This document shows, piece after piece, positions 4,307 to 62,401 of a stretch of DNA of 64,000 nt. Origin of the DNA: Shigella phage ESh25. Positions within the stretch are counted from its first letter, which is position 1. Each line of letters opens with the position of its first letter. A model generated the notes under the pieces. That model was given only the letters and a program-made list of their open reading frames with translations, searched no databases and was not told the DNA's origin. Location of the stretch: sequence record ON528735, one strand, 5' to 3'. The translations under genes and the position numbers were made by a program.

Positions 4307-4909
4307 TTATAGATTAAATCCTTCAAAATCAAGAGTATAGATAGTGTATGTTGAATACTTTTTATACTCATATCTATCTGCAATTCTAAATACACTTCCA
4401 GCTGGTATCATTACTTCTTGTTCATCTGAAACTAATTCCATATTACGATAACGATGGCTATCCGGAAACTTAAAGTTTGGATTGTATTCTTTACAGCGTA
4501 GAGCTTTTATAGCATACTCCTGGAAATTGAATACCATAGGAGCTTTGAATTCAAAAATAACTTGTGTGTTATACTCTAAACCGGAAGCAAAATGTAGAGC
4601 TATATTTTTATCATATGAAGCTGATACGACTTTATCAAATGTAATAATATCAATTCCTTGATTTAATACTTGCTTAGTCTCAGCTGGAACACCTCTCCAA
4701 AGAGGTTTATCGTTTGGAACCAAACGAGATTTGATTATTTCATTTAACCAAGTATGGTCATCTGGCTTATTAGTAATACAATGAATTAAAAGTTCAATTT
4801 CAGATAAATTAAACCCTTCAGAAAGCAATTCTTCACGAATAGAAGCACGCACCGATGCATCCATTGATTTTATTTTAAAATCTTTTAGTTGCATTACTGA
4901 GTATTTCAT
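4307..4909 (-). CDS. modA: ADP-ribosyltransferase ModA
   Basis: 200 aa; R...S...E(xE) ART-like motifs (LWRG, SASYD, EQEVMIP); paralog of adjacent ORF; T4 synteny. Confidence 0.75.
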   Translation of the reverse strand: MKYSVMQLKDFKIKSMDASVRASIREELLSEGFNLSEIELLIHCITNKPDDHTWLNEIIKSRLVPNDKPLWRGVPAETKQVLNQGIDIITFDKVVSASYDKNIALHFASGLEYNTQVIFEFKAPMVFNFQEYAIKALRCKEYNPNFKFPDSHRYRNMELVSDEQEVMIPAGSVFRIADRYEYKKYSTYTIYTLDFEGFNL

Positions 4910-5529
4910 TCAACTACCTCAATATCATAAACTTTAAATGTTCCAAATGAATCGTGTAATTTTTCTTTTGAAATAGAAGTTATTCTATACTTTCCAATTG
5001 GAATCATCCATTCTTGTTCATGTACAATCATCATTAAGTTATCAGTTCTTTCTGAATCTAACCCATCAGTATCTTCATACGTGTACTTAAACTCAGTATT
5101 AGGAGAAGAAAGTATAATATCGCTGATATGGTCAGAATAATTAAAAGCTTTATCAGTTTTTAAGCGAAGTACTATTTCAGTGAAATATTCAGCATAAGAA
5201 AAAGAACACGCTGTATGCAAACTAGTAGTAAATGAATCTACCCTGTTCGTTGAAAACACTTCTCCAACTTGCAAATCTTTAATAAGTTCTTTTGTCGATT
5301 TTGATATACCACGATATAATTGATAAGGCGATTTAGTTAAATGCTTTTTAATGATTTTATTCAACTGTCTGTGAAGAGCTTCATTCTTTTTTGCTTCCAT
5401 ACATTGCCAAAGAACAGACTGCTCAAAATCAGTAAATTTTTCACAGACCTTTTTATACATATCATATTGAAAATCAACGCTTTCAGCTTTTATAGATAAC
5501 TGTTCAACATCTGCAGGATTAATAATCAT
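4906..5529 (-). CDS. modB: ADP-ribosyltransferase ModB
   Basis: 207 aa; LYRG, FSTNR, EQEWMIP motifs; ATGA overlap with modA. Confidence 0.75.
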   Translation of the reverse strand: MIINPADVEQLSIKAESVDFQYDMYKKVCEKFTDFEQSVLWQCMEAKKNEALHRQLNKIIKKHLTKSPYQLYRGISKSTKELIKDLQVGEVFSTNRVDSFTTSLHTACSFSYAEYFTEIVLRLKTDKAFNYSDHISDIILSSPNTEFKYTYEDTDGLDSERTDNLMMIVHEQEWMIPIGKYRITSISKEKLHDSFGTFKVYDIEVVE

Positions 5530-7734: not shown

Positions 7735-7992
7735 TTAACCACCTACACCTGGTGTAGGTGTAACAGTCCAAAGACCTTCATTAGCAGTGATCCATTCAGT
7801 ACGCTGATTTTCTTCATATACTGTAGAATATGCTGCTTTTTCAGAAGGGAATGTCTGATAATGAGCACCAGAAATTTTGTGAACATCAGAATAAAGAGGG
7901 AAAGCTACAGAAATTTCTTTACCCTGAATTGTACCACCATCAACTGCTTGGTCAAATGTTTTGATATTAACATAACCGCGAGTACTAGCCAT
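7735..7992 (-). CDS. soc: small outer capsid protein Soc
   Basis: 85 aa; MASTRGYVNIKTF...SVAFPLYSDVHKISGAHYQTFPSEKAAYSTVYEENQRTEW matches T4 Soc with a few substitutions. Confidence 0.9.
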   Translation of the reverse strand: MASTRGYVNIKTFDQAVDGGTIQGKEISVAFPLYSDVHKISGAHYQTFPSEKAAYSTVYEENQRTEWITANEGLWTVTPTPGVGG

Positions 7993-8409: not shown

Positions 8410-8927
8410 TAATAACCTCGGTCTTGACGAGCGAAGTTTTCAGCATTTTTCAGGTAATAAAGTTTAAAGATTTCTTCAGCTGACATTCCAAGAGCAATAA
8501 ATTTATTCATGAAAAAGTGAAATTGGTCAATCAGTTCAAATTTAATTTCAAGCTGATCTTCAGGAGATAAATCTTGAATTTTCTTGGATTGCATTTCAGA
8601 ATAACGTTTCTTCCAAGGTTTCCATACAGCAGAAGCTTCTTTTTCACCATTACTCATACCACCAAGAGAAGTATATAGCTCGCGAGTTTCATCTGCGATA
8701 TAATCGTCTTGGTTTCGCAACCAAGCAAGAACTTCTCCTGCAGTTTCAAGTGAATCAGGATGACGATTTGTTTCTGGTTTATCATTAGCCAAACGAATCT
8801 GTAGATGCCGCTGCATGTCAAGCATAACCTGCAGTGGGTCAATATTGTGCATAATATTCTCAGCATATGCACGATTTGCTTTATCAACACCTTCGATCAA
8901 ATGAGCGCATTCATTAAAGTAAGCCAT
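8409..8927 (-). CDS. 56: dCTPase/dUTPase (gp56)
   Basis: Track ORF (203 aa) trimmed to internal ATG giving 171 aa MAYFNECAHL..., the T4 gp56 length; T4 synteny. Confidence 0.8.
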   Translation of the reverse strand: MAYFNECAHLIEGVDKANRAYAENIMHNIDPLQVMLDMQRHLQIRLANDKPETNRHPDSLETAGEVLAWLRNQDDYIADETRELYTSLGGMSNGEKEASAVWKPWKKRYSEMQSKKIQDLSPEDQLEIKFELIDQFHFFMNKFIALGMSAEEIFKLYYLKNAENFARQDRGY

Positions 8928-8998
8928 TATTTTTCCTTTCAATTCATGGGTTAGTAGATTAATTATACAATAAATATATAAAGCAATAAGGAGGACAT

Positions 8999-9199
8999 AT
9001 GGTACAAAAATTAATGGCACTTGTTAATGCCATAAAAGGTAATAAAAAACGTATAGCTTTTACTATTTCTGCTATGGTAGGAATTTTACTCTGGAATTTT
9101 GTTTTATCACCAATTGCTATTGCTCATGGTGTTAATATTCCAGTAGTTACTCTTGATACATTTGTAGATTTAGCATTTGCTTTAGTTGGGTTGATTTAA
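8999..9199 (+). CDS. small two-helix membrane protein (plus strand)
   Basis: 66 aa; strong SD AAGGAGG 6 nt before ATG; hydrophobic segments; the only convincing plus-strand gene in the window. Confidence 0.5.
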   Translation: MVQKLMALVNAIKGNKKRIAFTISAMVGILLWNFVLSPIAIAHGVNIPVVTLDTFVDLAFALVGLI

Positions 9200-13052: not shown

Positions 13053-13397
13053 TTAAAAGAATTTAAATTTTTTCTTTGACCTTTTATTAAATGCATCTTG
13101 TAGTTGCATTGTAATACATTTTTCTACATGAGGAGCTAACTCAGCTTTTCTTTCTTGGTCAAGAACAGCAAAGTCCATTACAACCTTTCCATCAACCCAA
13201 TCCAGTTTAGTTACATACACTATATGTGTAGAACCATCTTCTAGTTTAATGACAATCTCCTGGATAACATTTTCCATGGCAGATTTAATTATCTTAAGAG
13301 ACTCGTTAAAAAGACGTTCTTTTCTTTCTTCTTCCCCCTCTTCGGAGGGGGATTCGTCGATAATTTCTAGATCTAAATCTAAATCATCTTTATTCAT
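13053..13397 (-). CDS. 40: gp40 head vertex assembly chaperone (probable)
   Basis: Position between uvsX and 41; track start is GTG, trimmed to ATG that overlaps uvsX stop; start uncertain. Confidence 0.6.
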   Translation of the reverse strand: MNKDDLDLDLEIIDESPSEEGEEERKERLFNESLKIIKSAMENVIQEIVIKLEDGSTHIVYVTKLDWVDGKVVMDFAVLDQERKAELAPHVEKCITMQLQDAFNKRSKKKFKFF

Positions 13398-14571
13398 TAA
13401 ATTCTTCCATATCACTTAACTGCTCGAGGTCAGTTTCTAAATCAGCAGCTGATTTACTTTTACTTTCTGGAGATTTAAATTTTTCAACCTTTGAGTTAAT
13501 CAATTCATCAACTTCAGCTTCAACAATTTCATTACTATCAATAGCACCTAATTGATAAGCACGTTTAATAGCATCTCGGAATGGTTGATGCTTAAATAAA
13601 GGACCCCAGAATGTAGTGCAGTTGGTATCTTTTGCACGCCAAGATTTTTCTTCGCGAATCATCTCACCGGTTTCTTCGTCAAGAAATTCACGAGCATACC
13701 AGCCATTTTTAGGTTTTACTACAAATCCTAATTCTAGAGCCATATCTAACAATCCAGAATAAGGATCGATACCACCGTCAAATTTAACATCAATAAAGAA
13801 TTTACTTTTTTCTTTAACGGTACGAGATTTTTCTACATTTAGAACAAATTGATATCCCTGAAGATCAGAACCATCTTTAATCTGACGTTTACCGATAATG
13901 AATACAGTATCAGCCGAATACATTACGCCTGTACCGCCTGTCATCACGGTTTTACTAAACATTTCAATTGTTTCAATTGTATGGTTAACCGCAACACATG
14001 GAATATTTTTAATGCTAAAGTAAGGAGTAACAATACGGAATAATGACTTCAGTGATTTAGCACGAGTCATATCTGCCACAGATTTTTCATTCAAGGCATC
14101 TTCCGTTTCTTTCTTAGAAGCCATATTACCGATTGAGTCGATGAATACAATAACCTTTTCACCACGCTCAATAGCTTCAAGCTGGTTCACCATATCAATT
14201 TTCAGCTGTTCAACTGACTGGATTGGTGTATGAATTACTCGTTCCGGGTCAACTCCCATAGATCGCAAATAAGCTGGAGTGATACCAAATTCGCTATCAT
14301 AGAATAGACAAACCGCGTCAGGATATTTGTTCAAATATGCCGCAACCATAGTCAAAGACATATTTGATTTAAAGTGTTTAGAAGGCCCTGCGAAAATAGT
14401 TAAACCAGACTGCATGCCGCCATCAATCGCACCAGAAATAGCAATATTAAGCATTGGGATTTTTGTACGGATTACATCCTTTTCATTAAAGAATTTAGAT
14501 GTAGTCAGTTCAGCAGTCATTTTAGAAGTTGAAGCTTTAATCAAACGGGATTTTAAATCTGCAATAGACAT
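13390..14571 (-). CDS. uvsX: UvsX recombinase (RecA-like)
   Basis: 393 aa; sequence recognised as T4 UvsX. Confidence 0.95.
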   Translation of the reverse strand: MSIADLKSRLIKASTSKMTAELTTSKFFNEKDVIRTKIPMLNIAISGAIDGGMQSGLTIFAGPSKHFKSNMSLTMVAAYLNKYPDAVCLFYDSEFGITPAYLRSMGVDPERVIHTPIQSVEQLKIDMVNQLEAIERGEKVIVFIDSIGNMASKKETEDALNEKSVADMTRAKSLKSLFRIVTPYFSIKNIPCVAVNHTIETIEMFSKTVMTGGTGVMYSADTVFIIGKRQIKDGSDLQGYQFVLNVEKSRTVKEKSKFFIDVKFDGGIDPYSGLLDMALELGFVVKPKNGWYAREFLDEETGEMIREEKSWRAKDTNCTTFWGPLFKHQPFRDAIKRAYQLGAIDSNEIVEAEVDELINSKVEKFKSPESKSKSAADLETDLEQLSDMEEFNE

Positions 14572-14648
14572 TCATTTTTTCCATAGGCATCATTATATTT
14601 TCCTCACTGGTTAAAGATAGAGTAATTATAACACAATAAATTTAGGCA

Positions 14649-15491
14649 TTAATCAACTGCTATTGGATGAATAGCATTAAACTTATGAAATGCTTCTGAT
14701 TTTTCTTTACGCGAAACACACATGCGAAGAACCTTTAATGGCTCGTCTTCTTCACCCAACGATTTTCGTTTTTCAATATTCGACGTTTTCCAACGAGCTT
14801 GCTCTGGAAACTCTCTATTGATTTGCTCAAGCGCTCTATTATGTTTAGAATTACTACGAATTGAACTACACCCACCAGGAGCTTGCGCTTTACCTGATAC
14901 AACCAGATATTTGAACAAGGCCAAATGCGGATAACCTTGATTAATTAAATTGAGAAATGCATACATATCTTCGCACAAATCAATTTTTCCATACCCAATT
15001 TGTTCTGTCGTAAGTTTTCCAAGGTCATACCATGTATTCGTGAATCCATATGAATTTTCACGATAATTACCCCAAGATGAAGTAATTTTAAAAATAGGTA
15101 GACGAGCATGGCCATGATAATACCCGCAATCCATGGCATCTTCAACGTATTGAATCAATTCATAGAACTGTTCATGAGTCAATTGATTGACTTTATCCAC
15201 ACAACGACGGTCATCTCTTTTTCGCATTGAACTCATACGAATAGTAGTATCATCGTCAATCATCCAGATTCGTTGGCCTGCATACATATCAGTAATTGCT
15301 TTACGAGTACCGGCAATTCCGTTTACATCATCAGGAATAGTTATAATTTTAGCTCTAGACCCATAGGCATCATAATAAGCTTTTTCTTCATGTTCACGCA
15401 CTACAATATGGGGTTCATAATCAGTCGGAAACATATCAAGGGCAGAAACTGCCCCGACCCGCTGATAACTTGGAATTACGAATTGAATCAT
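14649..15491 (-). CDS. DNA-modifying glycosyltransferase (not T4 beta-gt type)
   Basis: ~280 aa; DxD-like MIDDD motif; occupies the beta-gt locus between uvsX and 42 but is not the 351 aa T4 beta-glucosyltransferase; ATGA overlap with gene 42. Confidence 0.6.
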   Translation of the reverse strand: MIQFVIPSYQRVGAVSALDMFPTDYEPHIVVREHEEKAYYDAYGSRAKIITIPDDVNGIAGTRKAITDMYAGQRIWMIDDDTTIRMSSMRKRDDRRCVDKVNQLTHEQFYELIQYVEDAMDCGYYHGHARLPIFKITSSWGNYRENSYGFTNTWYDLGKLTTEQIGYGKIDLCEDMYAFLNLINQGYPHLALFKYLVVSGKAQAPGGCSSIRSNSKHNRALEQINREFPEQARWKTSNIEKRKSLGEEDEPLKVLRMCVSRKEKSEAFHKFNAIHPIAVD

Positions 15492-16228
15492 TTCCACTCA
15501 CCGTTATAATCTTTTTTCACAATATGAGTTTCGCCAGTATTCCACCAATGATCAACCAAGTAAAAATGACGAGAATATACATGAAGACTTCCGACATTCC
15601 ATATAATAGAACCTGCTTTATACTGACGAGATGAATCGCCGGCATTCAAATCAGATACTAATTTATCTAATACGTATTTTTGCCATGCATAATCATTACG
15701 GAATCCGAAGACCACGTCATTTGAGCGCATGCTTACTACTGCATTGACTTTCTTATCACGAATCAGGTACTGTACTGTATTAGTACACATGAAATCTGAC
15801 ATACCATCTTTATTGTAGTCAAATTGCATGGATGGACGAGTATAAATCATGATACCACGTCGAGAATCAGGATTTTGACCAAGTTCAGCTAAACACATAT
15901 CATACTGGGCATAGTTATCTTCTGACCAAATAGCCCAACCATAATTCGAGTTAATTTCGCCTTTAGAAGATGCTACCTGCTGCCAAATCTTTGGTGTTTC
16001 ACCTGGAATATCTTTAACAAACAAGCTCTTAGATTTATACCATTCAAGTTCGCGCTGAATGTATTCATCATTAAGAGCACCAAAAATAAACGGTTCATCT
16101 GCTACAAATGATGCGCCAATAATTTCAATAGTTTTAACACCAGTTTTATCAACTACGAAATCTTTTTCTTTTAATGCAAGCCCCAAATGAAGACGGATTT
16201 CTTCAACTGTCATAGAGTCACTAATCAT
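15488..16228 (-). CDS. 42: dCMP hydroxymethylase (gp42)
   Basis: 246 aa; thymidylate-synthase-like; T4 synteny. Confidence 0.95.
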   Translation of the reverse strand: MISDSMTVEEIRLHLGLALKEKDFVVDKTGVKTIEIIGASFVADEPFIFGALNDEYIQRELEWYKSKSLFVKDIPGETPKIWQQVASSKGEINSNYGWAIWSEDNYAQYDMCLAELGQNPDSRRGIMIYTRPSMQFDYNKDGMSDFMCTNTVQYLIRDKKVNAVVSMRSNDVVFGFRNDYAWQKYVLDKLVSDLNAGDSSRQYKAGSIIWNVGSLHVYSRHFYLVDHWWNTGETHIVKKDYNGEWK

Positions 16229-16381
16229 TTAAACCTCAATTGATACATTCATATTTAACTTGTAACAGTAATAAACCCCAACCTAAAATAATAGTTGGAA
16301 TCATAGCAGGAACTGTTACGCTATAGTATATACTTATTATAACCATCAAGATTAAAAGCAACACTGTTATAATTTTGCTTT

Positions 16382-16633
16382 TCATTCCTTCTCTCTGATG
16401 ATAATTACCTGATTTGGTTGTGCAGACTTTTTAGTTTCACCCGCAATTGACCAAATAAATGTAATAAACCAACCAATAATTGACCAGTTAAACAGTAAAG
16501 ATGTGAAAAAGATTCCTACTGTCGATTTTGACCCACGCATCAAGGCAATGAACCATGGAAGCATGTATATAATAATAGCCAACACACCTGAAACTAAAAC
16601 CATAAAAATTGAACCTGCTACTAAAGTTTCCAT
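16382..16633 (-). CDS. imm: immunity protein Imm
   Basis: 83 aa with two TM helices; T4 synteny. Confidence 0.85.
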   Translation of the reverse strand: METLVAGSIFMVLVSGVLAIIIYMLPWFIALMRGSKSTVGIFFTSLLFNWSIIGWFITFIWSIAGETKKSAQPNQVIIIREKE

Positions 16634-22148: not shown

Positions 22149-22835
22149 TTAAAAATCGTGGGTAGAATCAGCTTCAAGAGCTACTACATAATTCGCATGT
22201 TCACCTTCAAATTTAGCAGCACCTTGTTTACCTTTTGCCCAGAGCAGAAGTTTATAATTTCCTGGTTGCATTTTCATATTTGCCATATTGATAATGAAAT
22301 TAAATGTATTTTCACCATCATAATCACCAAGAGTCAAAGAATATTTAACACGAGTCAAAGCAGAATCTTCTACTTTATTAAAACCGTTAATTATGATTTT
22401 ACCTTCTTTTACCGTGATAGCAATTGTATCAATTTGCAGACCACGAGATACACGCAGCAGTTGTTGAAGGTCTTCAGCTTTAATTTCAGTAACAACAGAT
22501 GCTACCGGAAATGGAATTGGTTTATTAGGAGCAACTACTGTACTCGGATCGGCTGCTGGCCAAAAAATTGTTGAGCGGGCATCAGCAATTTTAATATTTC
22601 CATCTTCTGACTGGGAAATTTCTGCATCATCATTAACTAAAGACAGAATACCGAGAAAACCGTTCAAATCGTAAATTGCTACATCAAAATCAATAACGTC
22701 AGAAATATTTGCTTCCGCATAAGTTGTACCATTAACTGCGCGAGTCATAATAAATTGACCTGATTTAAGCATAATGCCAGAGTTAATAGTAGCGAAATTT
22801 TTCAAAATATTCAGTGTGTCTTTAGATAATTTCAT
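22149..22835 (-). CDS. 45: sliding clamp (gp45)
   Basis: 228 aa; sequence recognised as T4 gp45. Confidence 0.95.
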   Translation of the reverse strand: MKLSKDTLNILKNFATINSGIMLKSGQFIMTRAVNGTTYAEANISDVIDFDVAIYDLNGFLGILSLVNDDAEISQSEDGNIKIADARSTIFWPAADPSTVVAPNKPIPFPVASVVTEIKAEDLQQLLRVSRGLQIDTIAITVKEGKIIINGFNKVEDSALTRVKYSLTLGDYDGENTFNFIINMANMKMQPGNYKLLLWAKGKQGAAKFEGEHANYVVALEADSTHDF

Positions 22836-23719
22836 TTCAATTTCCTATTTACATAATAGTTAGACCAGGACCGTACAGCACCCTGATAAGATTCGTCGTT
22901 AAACCCATTAGCTACTGCAATTTTACGAAATTTATTATAACTTGGTTTTCCGTAAGCATGCCATAAAGATTTTAATTCATCTTCATGTTCAATCCAAGTT
23001 CCTCTAGCTTTAGATTTTCTAAATTTTGATTTGAATTCCGGTAAATTATTTCTAACAGTTGCTTGAATTGAAGCTCTCTGTCTTCTTTCAGCATTATTCC
23101 ATAATTCTTTTTGAGATTTAGAAATTTTTGATCTTACACTTTCTGAATTCATTATATCACTAAACTTTTTAGCATAACTACAATCAAGATATTTCAATTT
23201 CATCTTATTTGAGAGTTTAAGCTTTTTCTCATCGGTCCAGTGATTCTTCATTGAATTAGATATTTTGTATTTTACTTCAGAACTATGTTTGTAACCTTTA
23301 CGAATACCGACATACTCAGGCGTAATTTCAGATTGCGAAAGCTTTACAATTTTTCCAGTTAAAACATTTTTATATGTTCCATATCCTTTAGCACCAATTA
23401 AAGTATTTTCATCTGCGTATGCTTTATTAAAATATTTTATATTACTTTTTGCTTTAACTTTTAATTGAAAAAATCTCTCCAATTTTCTTGGATCTAATAT
23501 AGTTTCAGCTAAAATTTTGACGGTATATTTAGTGGTTTTAATAAGTTCAAAATATTCATCGCTATAACTCGATGACACGCTTCCAGTATAAATCTTTCCA
23601 GCTGAATCAATTATATTTGTTCCATCGAAAATTGCGTTAATTTTTGAACCTATATAATAACACGGAAAAATATTTTTAGCTTCCCGCTCTGGAAAGCTAA
23701 TAAGATATACTAAATTCAT
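22832..23719 (-). CDS. GIY-YIG homing endonuclease (Seg-like)
   Basis: 295 aa; N-terminal VYLISFPE...CYYIGSK motif; C-terminal repeated basic Ser/Lys motifs (NUMOD-like); inserted between 45 and rpbA. Confidence 0.7.
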
Positions 23720-24105
23720 TTATTAAACTCGGCCACAATTGTTTCCGCAACAATTTGAGCAGCAACAATTAGACGTTCATCTGCATTACCACAATAATCA
23801 TCTTCAAGGCGTTCACCACATGAAGTCATAATAAATTTAGCACCGGCGTTTAGGGATTCTGTAGTATGTTTGCGCATTAGTTCAATCCATTTATTACTTA
23901 CTTCACGATCGATAGCTTCATAATACGCATGACGAGCAGGTGCAGATTTAATTTTGTTCTGAATAACTTCCATTGCGTTATCAGAAAGAGACAAAACCCA
24001 TGCTCGACGAATTTTATTTTGGTTTTGTGGATTTGATTCAGAACGCACGTGTTTTGGCTGAATATCTTTTACATCAACAGTATAATTCACAGTAATTTTA
24101 GTCAT
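23716..24105 (-). CDS. rpbA: RNA polymerase binding protein RpbA (probable)
   Basis: 129 aa; T4 synteny and size. Confidence 0.65.
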
Positions 24106-27664: not shown

Positions 27665-27683
27665 AAAGGGCCGAAGCCCTTTA
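27665..27683 (-). terminator. intrinsic terminator hairpin
   Basis: aaagggccgaagcccttt. Confidence 0.45.
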
Positions 27684-28883
27684 TTTTGTAATAATGTCAA
27701 ACTGTTCTTTAAAGCAGAAGCTTGAATCTTGGTGCTGATACAAAAATTCATATGCTTTTTCTCGCTCACGGTCATAAAGAGCTCGGTCAGATGACAGTTC
27801 TTTAATACGTTCAAATGTTGATTCCATATCATTTTCATCAAACCAAATGATACCGCTATCATGCGAGGTCAAAGGAGTATTATCAACACGGAATTTTAAA
27901 TTTTCGCCAGTAGATTTCCAAAATACCGGAATTGTTCCACATGCACCAAGCTCGAGATGAGTATATTCTAAAGAGCGCTGTAGATATTTTTTATCCAACT
28001 TACTCAACTGATAACCAAAACCGGATTTACTCATACGTTCAAGCATTTCGCTATTTACATAACGGTCAAGAATTTGCGTTGGCAAATTAGGAGCAATTTT
28101 AATTTGGTCTACTTGATGAAGACGATAATACTCGTATGGAATTCCTTTTTCTTTAATAGGAATGAACGCTGGAGAACGTTCCAGACCTTCCATAATAGTA
28201 CTTAGTCCTGCAGGTTTAAGATGTTTTTCGTGAAAATCAAACATCTGATAAAAACCTTTCCATGTAGTCGTACGACCAATCCAACGGTTGATATTCATAT
28301 TAATTTCAGAAACATCTTTCCAATAGGTTGATCGAACTTTCGCAATATCCATAGGAGGCTGAAAGTTATATACGGTCGGTGCTTCTTCAATATCATCAAA
28401 CAGAGAAACTGTTTCAGGATACCATTCTTTCATCAGAACTTTATTAAAATCACCATTATCAGAATGGCTAAAAATAACATCAGCTCGACGAACAGTTTCT
28501 TCTAATCCCAAATTTCGACGCAAAGAAAGAGAAGAATGGTCATGCTGATAAACTACAACACGAACAGAAGGTTTAATGTTATCAATAATTTTTTTATAGT
28601 TATTAATAGTGTCTTCTTCAACCGAAGTAGCAGGAACTGAATTGATAATTAGAATATCACAATCATTTACCAGCTTAAGTGTTTTATCGTATTCTTTTGC
28701 CAATAAAACCGGAATTGAAAATGATTTATAATCATGCGCGCAATTACGAGTAAATGATTTATCTTTAGCATAAACCAAAGTCACTTCATGACCATTTTTA
28801 ATAAACCAATCACGTTGCTCGAGTGAGAATTTTGTTACACCACAACCTTCAAGACCTCGAGCCATAAAAATACATACTTTCAT
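27681..28883 (-). CDS. agt: DNA alpha-glucosyltransferase
   Basis: 400 aa; sequence recognised as T4 alpha-gt. Confidence 0.93.
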   Translation of the reverse strand: MKVCIFMARGLEGCGVTKFSLEQRDWFIKNGHEVTLVYAKDKSFTRNCAHDYKSFSIPVLLAKEYDKTLKLVNDCDILIINSVPATSVEEDTINNYKKIIDNIKPSVRVVVYQHDHSSLSLRRNLGLEETVRRADVIFSHSDNGDFNKVLMKEWYPETVSLFDDIEEAPTVYNFQPPMDIAKVRSTYWKDVSEINMNINRWIGRTTTWKGFYQMFDFHEKHLKPAGLSTIMEGLERSPAFIPIKEKGIPYEYYRLHQVDQIKIAPNLPTQILDRYVNSEMLERMSKSGFGYQLSKLDKKYLQRSLEYTHLELGACGTIPVFWKSTGENLKFRVDNTPLTSHDSGIIWFDENDMESTFERIKELSSDRALYDREREKAYEFLYQHQDSSFCFKEQFDIITK

Positions 28884-33226: not shown

Positions 33227-33697
33227 TTAATCATGTGTCCACACCCCATCGGTATTTGACCAAAGTCGTTGATTATCTGATCCTCGCCACAGCTTTTTGG
33301 TCGGAAGATTTTTCTCATACTTCCCATCAATAATAACATCAACATATTTAAGCATTTCTAGTTGTTTAATATCTTCAAACTTATATCCTGTCCACAACCA
33401 AATGCTTTTATTGGGATAAAGATTTTTAATAGTTTGAACCACAGAGTGAATCACGTCTCTGTTATCAGGATAAAGAGGGTCACCTCCGGTTATAGTTAAT
33501 CCTTCTATATAATCATTATTCAAACATTCAATTAATTGTTCTAATGTTTCACCGGTGAATGGAATACCATTTCTAGCATTCCATGTTGATTTATTATAAC
33601 ACCCTTCGCATTTATGCAAACACCCCGTAACGAAAAGAACTGTCCTGCATCCAGGACCATTAACAAAGCAGCACGGGTATATTCTGTCATAATTCAT
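33227..33697 (-). CDS. nrdG: anaerobic ribonucleotide reductase activase NrdG (radical SAM)
   Basis: 156 aa; cysteine cluster CLHKCEGC; follows nrdD. Confidence 0.9.
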   Translation of the reverse strand: MNYDRIYPCCFVNGPGCRTVLFVTGCLHKCEGCYNKSTWNARNGIPFTGETLEQLIECLNNDYIEGLTITGGDPLYPDNRDVIHSVVQTIKNLYPNKSIWLWTGYKFEDIKQLEMLKYVDVIIDGKYEKNLPTKKLWRGSDNQRLWSNTDGVWTHD

Positions 33698-34526
33698 TTA
33701 TATATTTCCAATTATAGCCTTCAACACTTTTACGTTCGCCATTTAAACATTTTAAAATATTTCCTTTGCTAGAAATATTAAAATATTTTGCTGCGTCTGG
33801 TATATAATTAAATGTTTTTAAAAGAACACCATCTTTATATGCGCCAAATAAATTAAGAGTATATTTTTCTCGAAGACGCTGATGTTTCCTTTTCATAACC
33901 TCAGGATTTGCATACGCCAACTTCAATGAATTTCTGTGTTTTTCTTTTACTTCAGGTTTTTGCATTGCTAACTTAGTTAGCCTGGAAATTTTATTTCTAA
34001 CTTCGTCAGTTTTCATTGCATTTGACAAATTTAATAAAGTTTTATTTCTAACTTCAGGTTTTTGCATTGCTAACTTAGTTAGTTCTCTATGTCTTTTTCT
34101 AAAATCGTCATCCTTCCATATATTTTTCGATAATTTTGACATAGAGCGGTGAAATAATTCCTTTTCACTGGAATACAATTTAAAAATTTCATCCAATTCA
34201 TCCGCATTAAATCTATCGGTATTCGAGTTTATCATTCTATGAAAGGCATAACACATTTTACTATTGCTTGTTTTAGCTAAATAGTAATGAGCTAACGCAT
34301 GGTCATAATATGACAAATTAACAATATTCCATTTATCTGTTTTATATTCAGGAAATATAGATTTGGGAAGCACGTGATGTGCTTCCGTTTTTCCTTTTAT
34401 TTTAGGATTATTATAATTTTTTGTTATCAAATCAACATATGACAATAGTAAATCATTATTTTCTTCAAATATTAAAGCTAATTTATCATTCACAAAATCG
34501 CAAGGATAAAATCTATCATAATTCAT
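33687..34526 (-). CDS. HNH homing endonuclease (Mob-like) fused to a duplicated nrdG 5' end
   Basis: 279 aa; HHVLPKS...N...H motif; first 14 residues MNYDRFYPCDFVND parallel nrdG MNYDRIYPCCFVNG. Confidence 0.7.
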   Translation of the reverse strand: MNYDRFYPCDFVNDKLALIFEENNDLLLSYVDLITKNYNNPKIKGKTEAHHVLPKSIFPEYKTDKWNIVNLSYYDHALAHYYLAKTSNSKMCYAFHRMINSNTDRFNADELDEIFKLYSSEKELFHRSMSKLSKNIWKDDDFRKRHRELTKLAMQKPEVRNKTLLNLSNAMKTDEVRNKISRLTKLAMQKPEVKEKHRNSLKLAYANPEVMKRKHQRLREKYTLNLFGAYKDGVLLKTFNYIPDAAKYFNISSKGNILKCLNGERKSVEGYNWKYINEL

Positions 34527-36340
34527 TGGTGTTTAACCCTATGCATGATTTCTTTATTTTTGCCAAGATTAAATCCGCGCTCGTTCGGATTTCCCAAATA
34601 ACCACATGTTCTTCTTATTGTGTTCATCTTTTTAGGATCAGTTTCTCCACAAATAGAACAAACAAATCCGTTTTCAGTAGGAGTCATTTCATGGGTACTT
34701 CCGCATGTAAAACACTTATCTACTGGCATATTAACACCAAAATAATCTAAATGCTGTGCAGCATAATCCCACACGGCCTCAAGACCTTTTAAGTTATTTT
34801 TCATATCAGGAAGTTCAACATAAGAAATGTGACCACCTGTCGCAATGAAATGATATGGCGCTTCACGAGAAATCTTTTCAAACGGAGTAATATTTTCTTC
34901 TACTGAAACATGGAAACTGTTAGTGTACCAGCCTTTATCAGTAACATCTTTTACGCTTCCATATTTTTCTGTATCGAGTTTACAGAAGCGATAACAAAGG
35001 TTTTCAGCAGGAGTCGAATATAAACTAAAAGCAAACCCAGTTCTTTCAGTCCACTGTTTAAGACGAGCATTCATTTTAGTTAAAATTTCTTGTCCAATAT
35101 CACGACCGACAAGAATATTCAATTCATGAATACCAATGTATCCTAAAGACACTGAACTTCTACCGTTTTTAAATAACTCAATTATGTCGTCATCAGGTTT
35201 AAGACGAACCCCGAATGCACCTTCTTGGTAAAGAATAGGAGCAACAGTCGCTTTAACTCCTTTTAAGGAACTAATTCTACACATCAAAGCTTCAAAACAT
35301 AAATCCATTCGTTCATTGAACAATTCGATAAATTTCTGTTCATTGAACTGTGTTCCAATATAAGAATCTAATGCGATACGAGGAAGATTCAGTGTTACAA
35401 CACCGAGATTATTACGTCCATCAAGAATTTCATTGCCAGTCGAATCTTTCCATACGCTCAAGAAACTACGACAACCCATTGGAGAAACAGGAATAGATGA
35501 GCCAGTGATAGCTTTATTGTTCTTAGCTGAAATAATATCAGGATACATTCTTTTGCTTGCGCACTCTAAAGCAAGTTGCTTAATGTCGTAATTCGGATCG
35601 TCTTTATAAAGATTAACGCCTTCTTCAACGAACATAACAAGCTTAGGGAAAATAGGAGTTATCCCATCACGACCAAGACCTTTAATACGATTTTTCAGAA
35701 TTGCTTTCTGAATCATTCGTTCAGTCCAGTCAGTTCCCGTACCAAATGTAATTGTTACAAAAGGCGTTTGTCCGTTTGAACTAAAGAGAGTGTTTACTTC
35801 ATATTCATAAGCTTGGAATGCATCGTATACATCTTTTTCTGTTTTAGATTGAGCATAATTTAACGCATCAGCGATTTGCCATTTTTCTGCATCCTCAATA
35901 TGTTTTGCATAGGTGCGTTTAACATAAGGAGAAAGTACTTTATCTACATTCGCAAAAGTCGTTCCGCCGTATTGGTGAGAAGCAACCTGTGCAGTAATTT
36001 GTGCCATAATTGCAGTAGCAACGCCAATTGATTTAGGAGTTTCAATCTGTGCATTACCAAGCTTAAATCCGTTCTCAAGCATTCCTTTTAAATCTACTAA
36101 ACAACAATTAGTAAATGGAAGAGCAGGGGAATAATCAATATCATGGAAATGAATAATTCCGCTTTCATGCGCTTTCATAATAAAAGACGGGACCATATTT
36201 TTGGCAATGTGTTTAGACACAATACCAGCCATAAGGTCCCGTTGAGTTGGAAAAACACGAGAATCTTTATTAGCATTCTCGTTTAAAAGGTCTTTATTAG
36301 TTTTATGAATCAATCCTTCAATTTCTTTTTCAATTGTCAT
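34523..36340 (-). CDS. nrdD: anaerobic ribonucleotide reductase NrdD, intron-less
   Basis: 605 aa continuous ORF with glycyl radical region and C-terminal Cys cluster. Confidence 0.95.
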   Translation of the reverse strand: MTIEKEIEGLIHKTNKDLLNENANKDSRVFPTQRDLMAGIVSKHIAKNMVPSFIMKAHESGIIHFHDIDYSPALPFTNCCLVDLKGMLENGFKLGNAQIETPKSIGVATAIMAQITAQVASHQYGGTTFANVDKVLSPYVKRTYAKHIEDAEKWQIADALNYAQSKTEKDVYDAFQAYEYEVNTLFSSNGQTPFVTITFGTGTDWTERMIQKAILKNRIKGLGRDGITPIFPKLVMFVEEGVNLYKDDPNYDIKQLALECASKRMYPDIISAKNNKAITGSSIPVSPMGCRSFLSVWKDSTGNEILDGRNNLGVVTLNLPRIALDSYIGTQFNEQKFIELFNERMDLCFEALMCRISSLKGVKATVAPILYQEGAFGVRLKPDDDIIELFKNGRSSVSLGYIGIHELNILVGRDIGQEILTKMNARLKQWTERTGFAFSLYSTPAENLCYRFCKLDTEKYGSVKDVTDKGWYTNSFHVSVEENITPFEKISREAPYHFIATGGHISYVELPDMKNNLKGLEAVWDYAAQHLDYFGVNMPVDKCFTCGSTHEMTPTENGFVCSICGETDPKKMNTIRRTCGYLGNPNERGFNLGKNKEIMHRVKHQ

Positions 36341-61743: not shown

Positions 61744-61751
61744 TATTTATA
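61744..61751 (-). promoter_or_regulatory. possible late promoter TATAAATA at segB 3' end
   Basis: Exact 8-mer on minus strand overlapping last segB codons, a few nt 5' of tRNA-Ser; could be chance in AT-rich DNA. Confidence 0.3.
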
Positions 61752-62355
61752 TATTGTTAATTTGATTTAGAATTCTTTTTGCTTGAGTATGACTTACGCC
61801 AATATGCTTAGCATATTTAGATAATTCACCCCGCTTAGAAAAATCATATAATTTAGAAATTTCTATTCTTCTTTTTCTTTCATCCGCAGAAACTTTTGCT
61901 TCGTTTGCTTTTGCTATTTTACGTTTAGCTTCTTGAGAATGAGTTTTACCAGCAAAGCCATTTTTCATTAATCCATTTGAAGACCATCCTTTTAATTTTC
62001 CGTTAGAATGTGCCTTTTTAACACCCAATGAAATTAATTCGCGTTGCTGATCTGTCATAGGATAATTATTTATATGATCCCATCCACCTTCACCTCCAAG
62101 TTTTAAATTATACACATCTGGTCTATTTAAAAACTCTTCTGTGACAATATTTTTCTCGGCTTCAAGCATAGATTCTTTATCATCAAAATACTCTAATATT
62201 TCTTTAGAAAAATTTTCTATGCCATATTTATCTTGGGCTCTTTTTAATAATTTACCAGAACCCATATATCCATCATCTAAATTTTCGGTAGAATGCACAC
62301 CAATATAAATTTTATTATTAATTTTATTTGTTATTTTATAAAGATAAAAATGCAT
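61747..62355 (-). CDS. segB: GIY-YIG homing endonuclease SegB
   Basis: FYLYKITNK...IYIGV motif; embedded in the tRNA cluster as in T4; track ORF starts at ATG 62397 (216 aa), I prefer ATG 62355 next to the motif. Confidence 0.8.
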   Translation of the reverse strand: MHFYLYKITNKINNKIYIGVHSTENLDDGYMGSGKLLKRAQDKYGIENFSKEILEYFDDKESMLEAEKNIVTEEFLNRPDVYNLKLGGEGGWDHINNYPMTDQQRELISLGVKKAHSNGKLKGWSSNGLMKNGFAGKTHSQEAKRKIAKANEAKVSADERKRRIEISKLYDFSKRGELSKYAKHIGVSHTQAKRILNQINNI

Positions 62356-62401
62356 ATCAGTCCCTAATAAAGAACTGAGCGTCTCACGACGAGTCATAAA
62401 T

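What the first reader, a model, noticed from the sequence alone, without database searches (positions are those of the whole stretch)
14649..15491. The beta-glucosyltransferase locus is occupied by a different glycosyltransferase
Between uvsX and gene 42, where T4 encodes the 351 aa beta-gt, this phage has a ~280 aa protein with a DxD-type motif (MIDDD) and no resemblance to T4 beta-gt. alpha-gt is conserved at 27681..28883. This predicts a T2/T6-like hydroxymethylcytosine glycosylation pattern (a second sugar added to alpha-glucosyl-HMC) rather than T4-type beta-glucosylation, which changes sensitivity to modification-dependent restriction.
Basis: partly seen in the sequence, partly recalled or inferred. 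Interest (0 to 1): 0.5.

Follow-up and report, generated by a model that had tools for sequence, protein, structure and literature searches.

The report
Known T2/T6 second-sugar DNA glucosyltransferase
The gene between uvsX and gene 42 is the well-known T2/T6-type enzyme that adds a second glucose to already glucosylated phage DNA; this is the usual arrangement in T4-like coliphages, and T4 itself is the exception.

Summary
Window 14649..15491 (minus strand) is an intact 280-aa ORF whose ATG overlaps the stop of gene 42. It carries M77-I78-D79-D80-D81 and shows no similarity to T4 beta-gt. The protein is 98.9% identical to the beta-glucosyl-HMC-alpha-glucosyltransferases (ba-gt, ggt, "TAGT") of T2 and T6. 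It matches PHROG 842 at 6e-89 and Pfam PF20691 above its cutoff, and its model has a GT-A/GT2-like fold. At least 462 deposited phage genomes carry the same gene in the same place. alpha-gt, gene 42 and dCTPase are present; no beta-gt homologue is found in the window. Published work states that alpha-GT plus TAGT is the norm in Tequatrovirus, and that alpha-GT plus beta-GT (T4) occurs in only 6 of 753 genomes. One refinement: both transferases are one residue away from those of phage EH2, whose DNA was measured at about two-thirds gentiobiosyl-hmC. T2 (about 5% gentiobiosyl) carries His at Arg11, which is invariant across the family; this window has Arg11. I therefore predict a T6/EH2-like, gentiobiosyl-rich genome. 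Novelty: already known. Interest: low.

The parts
14649..15491 (-). ba-gt (ggt / TAGT): beta-glucosyl-HMC-alpha-glucosyltransferase, 280 aa, GT-A fold
15249..15257 (-). Codons for D79-D80-D81, the DxD metal / UDP-sugar-binding motif, directly after predicted strand 74-77
   Evidence: Sequence read directly. D79 is found in 151/153, D80 in 153/153 and D81 in 146/153 family representatives. Strand position taken from the model.
15459..15461 (-). Codon for Arg11 (CGG) in the N-terminal IPSYQR motif. It is invariant in the family, and both T2 genome records have His here
   Evidence: R11 is found in 151 of 151 ungapped representatives. T2 records AP018813 and MH751506 have H11; both T6 records, EL, EH2 and the window have R11.
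15488..16228 (-). Gene 42, dCMP hydroxymethylase. It makes the hmC precursor, and its stop codon overlaps the ba-gt start (ATGA)
   Evidence: Pfam Thymidylat_synt. 96.7% identical to T4 gp42. Overlap read from the sequence.
27681..28883 (-). alpha-gt, DNA alpha-glucosyltransferase. It makes alpha-glucosyl-hmC, the acceptor for ba-gt. This is the T2/EH2-type allele
   Evidence: Pfam AGT 1.8e-237. 398/400 identical to T2, 399/400 to EH2, and about 92% to T4, T6 and EL.
8412..8927 (-). Gene 56, dCTPase/dUTPase. It removes dCTP from the pool so that hmC replaces C
   Evidence: tblastn with T6 gp56: 98.3% identity over 172/172 aa.
13390..14571 (-). uvsX recombinase, the downstream flank of the locus. 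T4's segA homing-endonuclease gene is absent between uvsX and the transferase
   Evidence: Pfam T4_UVSX_C and RecA. T4 gene map. The only segA-like matches in the window are elsewhere, at 61903..62346 and 22886..23308.
14572..14648 (-). 77-nt spacer between ba-gt and uvsX, identical in T2 and T6. It contains TGCCTAA, 11 nt, then TATAAT preceded by TGT. This resembles a T4 middle promoter (MotA box plus extended -10) for uvsX (inference only)
   Evidence: Sequence read directly. Identical in T2 and T6 over the aligned stretch 14600..14648. The generic sigma-70 scan found nothing above chance here.

Best explanation
The ORF is the orthologue of the T2/T6 beta-glucosyl-HMC-alpha-glucosyltransferase (ba-gt, ggt, TAGT). 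The pathway runs as follows. gp56 and gp42 replace dCTP with hm-dCTP. After replication, alpha-gt transfers glucose from UDP-glucose onto hmC in alpha linkage. This GT-A-fold enzyme then uses its DDD motif (79-81) to bind metal and UDP-glucose, and adds a second glucose in beta-1,6 linkage to the first. The product is gentiobiosyl-hmC. No beta-glucosyl-hmC is made because there is no beta-gt. Shown here: orthology, fold class, conservation of the family-invariant residues, synteny, and presence of the upstream pathway genes. Taken from the literature: the chemistry, and the consequence for defence. Gentiobiosyl-hmC escapes the alpha-glucosyl-hmC glycosylase Brig1 and the deglucosylating BapA, but GmrSD-type enzymes still recognise it. 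Inferred: the extent of modification. Both transferases are within one residue of those of phage EH2, which was measured at about 2/3 gentiobiosyl, about 1/3 bare hmC and a trace of monoglucosyl. The enzyme also keeps Arg11, which T2 has lost. I therefore expect a T6/EH2-like, gentiobiosyl-rich genome rather than a T2-like one (about 0.65 for this sub-claim).
Against: No biochemical data exist for this phage. The structural model is only moderate (mean pLDDT 70; residues 126-151 fall below 50). No solved structure of any close relative exists. The ratio of mono- to di-glucosylation cannot be read from sequence with confidence. T2 and EH2 have nearly identical enzymes yet reportedly differ between about 5% and about 67% gentiobiosyl. 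Phage EL, with 8 substitutions relative to the window, is intermediate. Only 64 kb of the genome is visible, so a beta-gt elsewhere is not strictly excluded, although none is known outside this locus.
Confidence: 0.93

Rival explanations
1. The gene is the same, but the outcome is T2-like. The enzyme works poorly in vivo, so the DNA is mostly alpha-monoglucosyl-hmC with only a few percent gentiobiosyl, and the phage stays fully exposed to alpha-glucosyl-hmC-specific defences such as Brig1.
For: The alpha-gt allele is the T2 type (398/400 identical). T2, with a 98.9% identical ba-gt, reportedly has only about 5% gentiobiosyl. What sets the ratio is not established.
Against: The window lacks both T2-specific substitutions (R11H, P251S), and R11 is invariant in 151/151 family representatives. 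EH2 has the same T2-type alpha-gt (399/400) and a ba-gt one residue different, and was measured at about 2/3 gentiobiosyl. The alpha-gt allele type does not track the ratio across T2, T6, EL and EH2.
Confidence: 0.25
2. A TAGT-family enzyme with a different specificity. It might use a different sugar donor, or glycosylate bare hmC directly, and so give a modification not seen in T2 or T6.
For: The TAGT family is large and functionally diverse: 2143 representatives at 50% clustering. Many phages carry a solitary TAGT without alpha- or beta-GT (PMC13216743).
Against: At about 99% identity to the T2, T6 and EH2 enzymes, with no change at conserved positions, a switch of specificity is very unlikely. 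The three residues differing from T2 and the three differing from T6 are positions where other phages with measured gentiobiosyl-hmC agree with the window.
Confidence: 0.03
3. Not a functional sugar transferase: a decaying or repurposed ORF whose DxD-like motif is a coincidence.
For: None beyond the lack of direct assay. One deposited T6 genome (MH550421) does carry an amber codon at position 10, so null alleles circulate in laboratory stocks.
Against: The 280-codon frame is intact, its start is translationally coupled to gene 42, all family-invariant residues are retained, and it passes the Pfam gathering threshold.
Confidence: 0.01

Closest known systems
beta-glucosyl-HMC-alpha-glucosyltransferase of phages T2 and T6 (ba-gt / ggt; cloned by Winkler & Rueger, Nucleic Acids Res 1993, cited)
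   Same: Same length (280 aa) and same position between uvsX and gene 42. Same ATGA overlap with gene 42. 277/280 identical to each.
   Different: Three substitutions relative to each. The window has Arg11 and Pro251 where T2 has His and Ser, and Tyr40 and Asp55 where T6 has Asn and Gly. The T6 record MH550421 additionally has an amber codon at position 10.
TAGT of Escherichia phage vB_Eco_EH2 (OZ034684.1), Durham collection
   Same: ba-gt 279/280 identical and alpha-gt 399/400 identical. Neither has a dam gene between genes 56 and 61 in the regions examined. EH2 DNA was measured at about 2/3 alpha-gentiobiosyl-mdC and about 1/3 5-hmdC.
   Different: H106 in the window versus R106 in EH2. The genomes are about 96.6% identical over the first 25 kb of the window. 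The window phage carries a homing endonuclease next to gene 45 that EH2 lacks.
Pfam PF20691 TET-associated glycosyltransferase (TAGT) family; GT-A fold, GT2-like
   Same: Passes the gathering threshold over the whole domain (residues 3-207 against profile positions 2-205 of 205). Has the invariant DDD, R11, R63, D175, GG206-207 and R212. The fold matches GT2 enzymes.
   Different: Most family members sit in other contexts (TET/JBP-linked or solitary) and have unknown acceptors. This subgroup acts on alpha-glucosyl-hmC made by a GT-B alpha-gt.
T4 beta-glucosyltransferase (b-gt; Pfam PF09198, GT-B fold)
   Same: Occupies the same genomic slot downstream of gene 42. Also uses UDP-glucose and forms a beta linkage on phage DNA.
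   Different: No sequence similarity. Different fold class, GT-B versus GT-A. The acceptor is bare hmC rather than alpha-glucosyl-hmC. In T4 the slot also holds segA.

Membership tests
T2/T6 ba-gt (beta-glucosyl-HMC-alpha-glucosyltransferase; PHROG 842) | Full-length, high sequence identity to the characterised T2 and T6 enzymes | tested here: met
   277/280 identical to T2 and 277/280 to T6. PHROG 842 at 6e-89, covering residues 1-275.
T2/T6 ba-gt (beta-glucosyl-HMC-alpha-glucosyltransferase; PHROG 842) | Located between uvsX and gene 42 in a Tequatrovirus genome | tested here: met
   The same layout occurs in at least 462 records.
T2/T6 ba-gt (beta-glucosyl-HMC-alpha-glucosyltransferase; PHROG 842) | Co-occurs with the enzymes that make its acceptor: gp42 hydroxymethylase, gp56 dCTPase and alpha-gt | tested here: met
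   Pfam AGT 1.8e-237. gp42 96.7% and gp56 98.3% identical.
T2/T6 ba-gt (beta-glucosyl-HMC-alpha-glucosyltransferase; PHROG 842) | Transfers glucose from UDP-glucose in beta-1,6 linkage onto alpha-glucosyl-hmC in DNA | not testable with these tools
   Needs an enzyme assay or nucleoside LC-MS. Supported only by orthology and published data on T6 delta-ba-gt and on EH2.
Pfam PF20691 TAGT / GT-A glycosyltransferases | Score above the Pfam gathering threshold | tested here: met
   39.1 bits against 27.5; E 9.7e-10.
Pfam PF20691 TAGT / GT-A glycosyltransferases | GT-A (single Rossmann-like domain) fold | tested here: met
Pfam PF20691 TAGT / GT-A glycosyltransferases | DxD motif after the fourth strand, plus the family-invariant residues | tested here: met
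   D79-D80-D81 follow strand 74-77. Conservation is 98-100% among 153 representatives. R11, R63, D175, G186, G206, G207 and R212 are all present.
T4 beta-gt (Pfam PF09198, GT-B) | Detectable sequence similarity to T4 b-gt, or a Pfam PF09198 match | tested here: not met
   BLASTP best E 0.28. No PF09198 match at E up to 0.1. tblastn of T4 b-gt against the whole window gives best E 2.4.

The most novel reading that the evidence does not exclude
The long-known difference between T2 (about 5% gentiobiosyl-hmC) and T6 or EH2-like phages (about 70%) may come from a hypomorphic ba-gt in T2. T2 has His in place of Arg11, a residue invariant in 151/151 TAGT family representatives. This window carries the fully active Arg11 allele and would therefore make a gentiobiosyl-rich genome. 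T2 and EH2 otherwise differ by only P251S in ba-gt (a non-conserved site) and E327D in alpha-gt. I found no statement of this idea in the papers searched, but the original 1993 cloning paper could not be read.
Probability: 0.4. Interest if true: 0.3.

Novelty: already known. Interest (0 to 1): 0.08.

Why it matters
The second glucose changes which host defences can act on the phage DNA. Gentiobiosyl-hmC resists the alpha-glucosyl-hmC glycosylase Brig1 and the deglucosylating enzyme BapA, while GmrSD/BrxU-type restriction still recognises it. Knowing that this phage has alpha-gt plus ba-gt, and probably the active, T6/EH2-like version, helps predict its host range and its suitability for therapy. 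It adds nothing new to biology. The gene, its position and its function have been known since the 1960s to 1990s, and recent surveys show it is the default arrangement in the genus.

Tried and rejected
A sequence search of the PDB found only chance matches (E above 1), so there is no solved close relative.

NCBIfam has no model for either transferase.

The generic promoter and terminator scan around the gene gave counts at the level of shuffled controls (11 against 10.1 promoter-like; 1 against 1.2 terminator-like). Nothing is claimed from it.

I tested whether the alpha-gt allele type predicts the mono- to di-glucosyl ratio. It does not. T2 (5%) and EH2 (about 67%) share one allele; T6 (72%) and EL (about 40%) share the other.

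I considered the presence of dam as a correlate. T2 and EL have it between genes 56 and 61, and T6 and the window do not in the stretches searched; EH2's 56-61 interval was not in the piece I fetched. Dam acts only at GATC, so it cannot explain a genome-wide shift. I treat the pattern as shared ancestry.

The Winkler & Rueger 1993 paper is not in the held library. I therefore could not check whether the original T2 clone also had His11, or whether the authors compared activities.

I looked for long homopolymer runs ('contingency loci') of the kind reported for T2 agt. There are none of 6 or more bases in ba-gt, and only T6 and T7 runs in alpha-gt. I did not pursue this.

Full report
**Observation**

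The minus strand of the window carries an open reading frame at 14649..15497 if read from a GTG. From the ATG at 15491 it encodes 280 aa. That ATG overlaps the TGA of the upstream gene (ATGA). The upstream gene, 15488..16228, is gene 42, the dCMP hydroxymethylase (Pfam Thymidylat_synt; 96.7% identical to T4 gp42). Downstream, after a 77-nt spacer, lies uvsX at 13390..14571 (Pfam T4_UVSX_C 4.7e-39). The protein contains W76-M-I-D-D-D81. In T4 the same interval holds segA and the 351-aa b-gt. BLASTP of the window protein against T4 b-gt finds nothing (best E 0.28 over ten residues).

**What it is**

A megablast of 14400..15700 against 50,697 phage records finds 592 records. In 462 of them the match covers at least 80% of the query. 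Many annotate the gene under the match as 'beta-glucosyl-HMC-alpha-glucosyl-transferase', flanked by dCMP hydroxymethylase and uvsX.

I fetched the corresponding regions of T2 (AP018813, MH751506) and T6 (MH550421, AP018814). The window protein is 277/280 identical to the T2 protein and 277/280 to the T6 protein. It matches PHROG 842 (named the same) at 6e-89. It matches Pfam PF20691, 'TET-associated glycosyltransferase' (TAGT), at 39.1 bits against a cutoff of 27.5, across the whole domain.

**Family conservation**

A profile search of 1.84 billion cluster representatives finds 2143 members at E up to 1e-3. I aligned the window protein with 152 full-length representatives. Only about ten positions are essentially invariant: R11 (151 of 151 ungapped), R63, D79, D80, D81, D175, G186, G206, G207 and R212. 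The window protein has all of them.

**How it works**

Shown here:
- The pathway genes are present: gp56 dCTPase (8412..8927, 98.3% identical to T6), gp42 and alpha-gt.
- No beta-gt homologue is found anywhere in the 64 kb (best tblastn E 2.4).

From established knowledge and the papers read:
- hmC replaces C during replication.
- alpha-gt adds glucose in alpha linkage.
- ba-gt then adds a second glucose, beta-1,6-linked to the first, giving gentiobiosyl-hmC.
- A GT2-like inverting mechanism fits the formation of a beta linkage from UDP-alpha-glucose (inference).
- Deleting ba-gt in T6 leaves only alpha-glucosyl-hmC and raises sensitivity to the Brig1 glycosylase (PMC11078745).
- BapA cannot remove glucose from gentiobiosyl-hmC unless the gene is deleted (bioRxiv 10.64898/2026.02.25.707755).
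- GmrSD still targets gentiobiosyl-hmC.

**Is it unusual?**

It is not. A 2026 survey reports that the great majority of GT-encoding phages carry alpha-GT or beta-GT together with a TAGT. Only 6 of 753 genomes, T4 and close relatives, carry alpha-GT plus beta-GT (PMC13216743). The window itself comes from an ordinary Tequatrovirus, about 97-98% identical over 25 kb to phages SHBML-50-1, GiZh and others.

**A refinement: T2-like or T6-like?**

'T2/T6-like' hides a large difference, about 5% gentiobiosyl in T2 against about 72% in T6. I compared both transferases across five phages of known composition.

| Phage | Reported gentiobiosyl share | ba-gt identity to window | alpha-gt identity to window | alpha-gt allele |
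|---|---|---|---|---|
| T2 | ~5% | 277/280 | 398/400 | T2 type |
| T6 | ~72% | 277/280 | 367/400 | T4 type |
| EL | ~40% | 272/280 | 368/400 | T4 type |
| EH2 | ~67% | 279/280 | 399/400 | T2 type |
| T4 | none (has beta-gt instead) | no ba-gt | 366/400 | T4 type |

The alpha-gt alleles fall into two types about 92% identical to each other, and the type does not track the ratio. The window's enzymes are closest to EH2.

T2's ba-gt differs from EH2's at only two positions, R11H and P251S, in both T2 genome records. Its alpha-gt differs from EH2's at one position (E327D). Arg11 is invariant in the family and Pro251 is not conserved. A hypomorphic R11H enzyme would explain T2's low gentiobiosyl content. 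This is an inference and remains untested. Differences in expression or in other genes are not excluded, and EL's intermediate value shows that other substitutions also matter. Because the window has Arg11 and is nearly identical to EH2, I predict a gentiobiosyl-rich, T6/EH2-like genome, with a probability of about 0.65 for this sub-claim.

**Verdict**

The feature is the textbook T2/T6 ba-gt in its usual place: already known, and of low interest. The only mildly new point is the Arg11/His11 contrast. It concerns T2 rather than this window and needs an experiment.

**Dead ends**

These are listed under 'tried and rejected'. They cover the PDB sequence search, NCBIfam, the promoter scan, alpha-gt allele type and dam presence as predictors of the ratio, the unavailable 1993 paper, and homopolymer tracts.

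Noticed in passing
L001 (T6 record MH550421) 7951..7953, codon 10 of ggt; compare L008 (T6 record AP018814): The MH550421 T6 genome has TAG (amber) at codon 10 of ba-gt, where AP018814 T6, T2, EL, EH2 and the window have CAG. Its CDS is therefore annotated from Met20 (261 aa), which lacks the first strand and Arg11. This is either a null or suppressible mutation in that T6 stock, or a sequencing error. It is relevant to anyone using that record as the T6 reference.
   Followed up: partly
L002 and L009 (T2 records AP018813, MH751506), codon 11 of ba-gt: Both T2 genome records encode His at position 11, where 151 of 151 TAGT family representatives have Arg. This is a possible cause of T2's low (about 5%) gentiobiosyl-hmC content.
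   Followed up: partly
window 22832..23719 (-): A 295-aa ORF overlaps the start of gene 45 by 4 nt and is inserted between gene 45 and rpbA. It matches PHROG 655 homing endonuclease (4e-33) and is weakly SegA-like (tblastn E 0.001). Only 24 of 504 related phage records cover at least 80% of the 22700..23900 query that spans the insert; it is absent from the T4, T6, EL and EH2 regions examined. It is a sporadic free-standing homing endonuclease.
   Followed up: partly
window 33687..34526 (-): A 279-aa homing-endonuclease-like ORF (PHROG 655 at 7e-37; NUMOD-type C-terminal DNA-binding motif) sits between the 33227..33697 ORF and the 605-aa ORF at 34523..36340. By gene order those two flanking ORFs are probably nrdG and nrdD, but neither was checked.
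   Followed up: no
window 61747..62397 (-): A 216-aa ORF is 45% identical to T4 SegA over 150 aa (tblastn 3.5e-29). This is a Seg-type GIY-YIG homing endonuclease at a different site, while T4's segA position next to uvsX is empty here.
   Followed up: no
window 16236..16385 (-): A 49-aa hydrophobic ORF lies between gene 42 and imm and overlaps the imm stop. It matches PHROG 3610 (2.6e-26, unknown function). It is annotated in phages EL and EH2 but not in the T4, T2 or T6 records, which show a 153-nt gap there.
   Followed up: no
window 8928..9195 (between genes 56 and 61): There is no dam methyltransferase gene between gene 56 and gene 61. T2 and EL carry dam plus a neighbouring ORF of about 180 aa there. 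T6 and the window lack both in the stretches searched (EH2's 56-61 interval was not fetched). Among T2, EL and T6, presence of dam coincides with a lower gentiobiosyl fraction. This is probably shared ancestry rather than cause.
   Followed up: partly
window 4307..4909 and 4906..5529 (-): Two adjacent paralogous ORFs (200 and 207 aa) match the ADP-ribosyltransferase PHROG 832. This is the modA/modB pair as in T4. It is ordinary and noted only for completeness.
   Followed up: no
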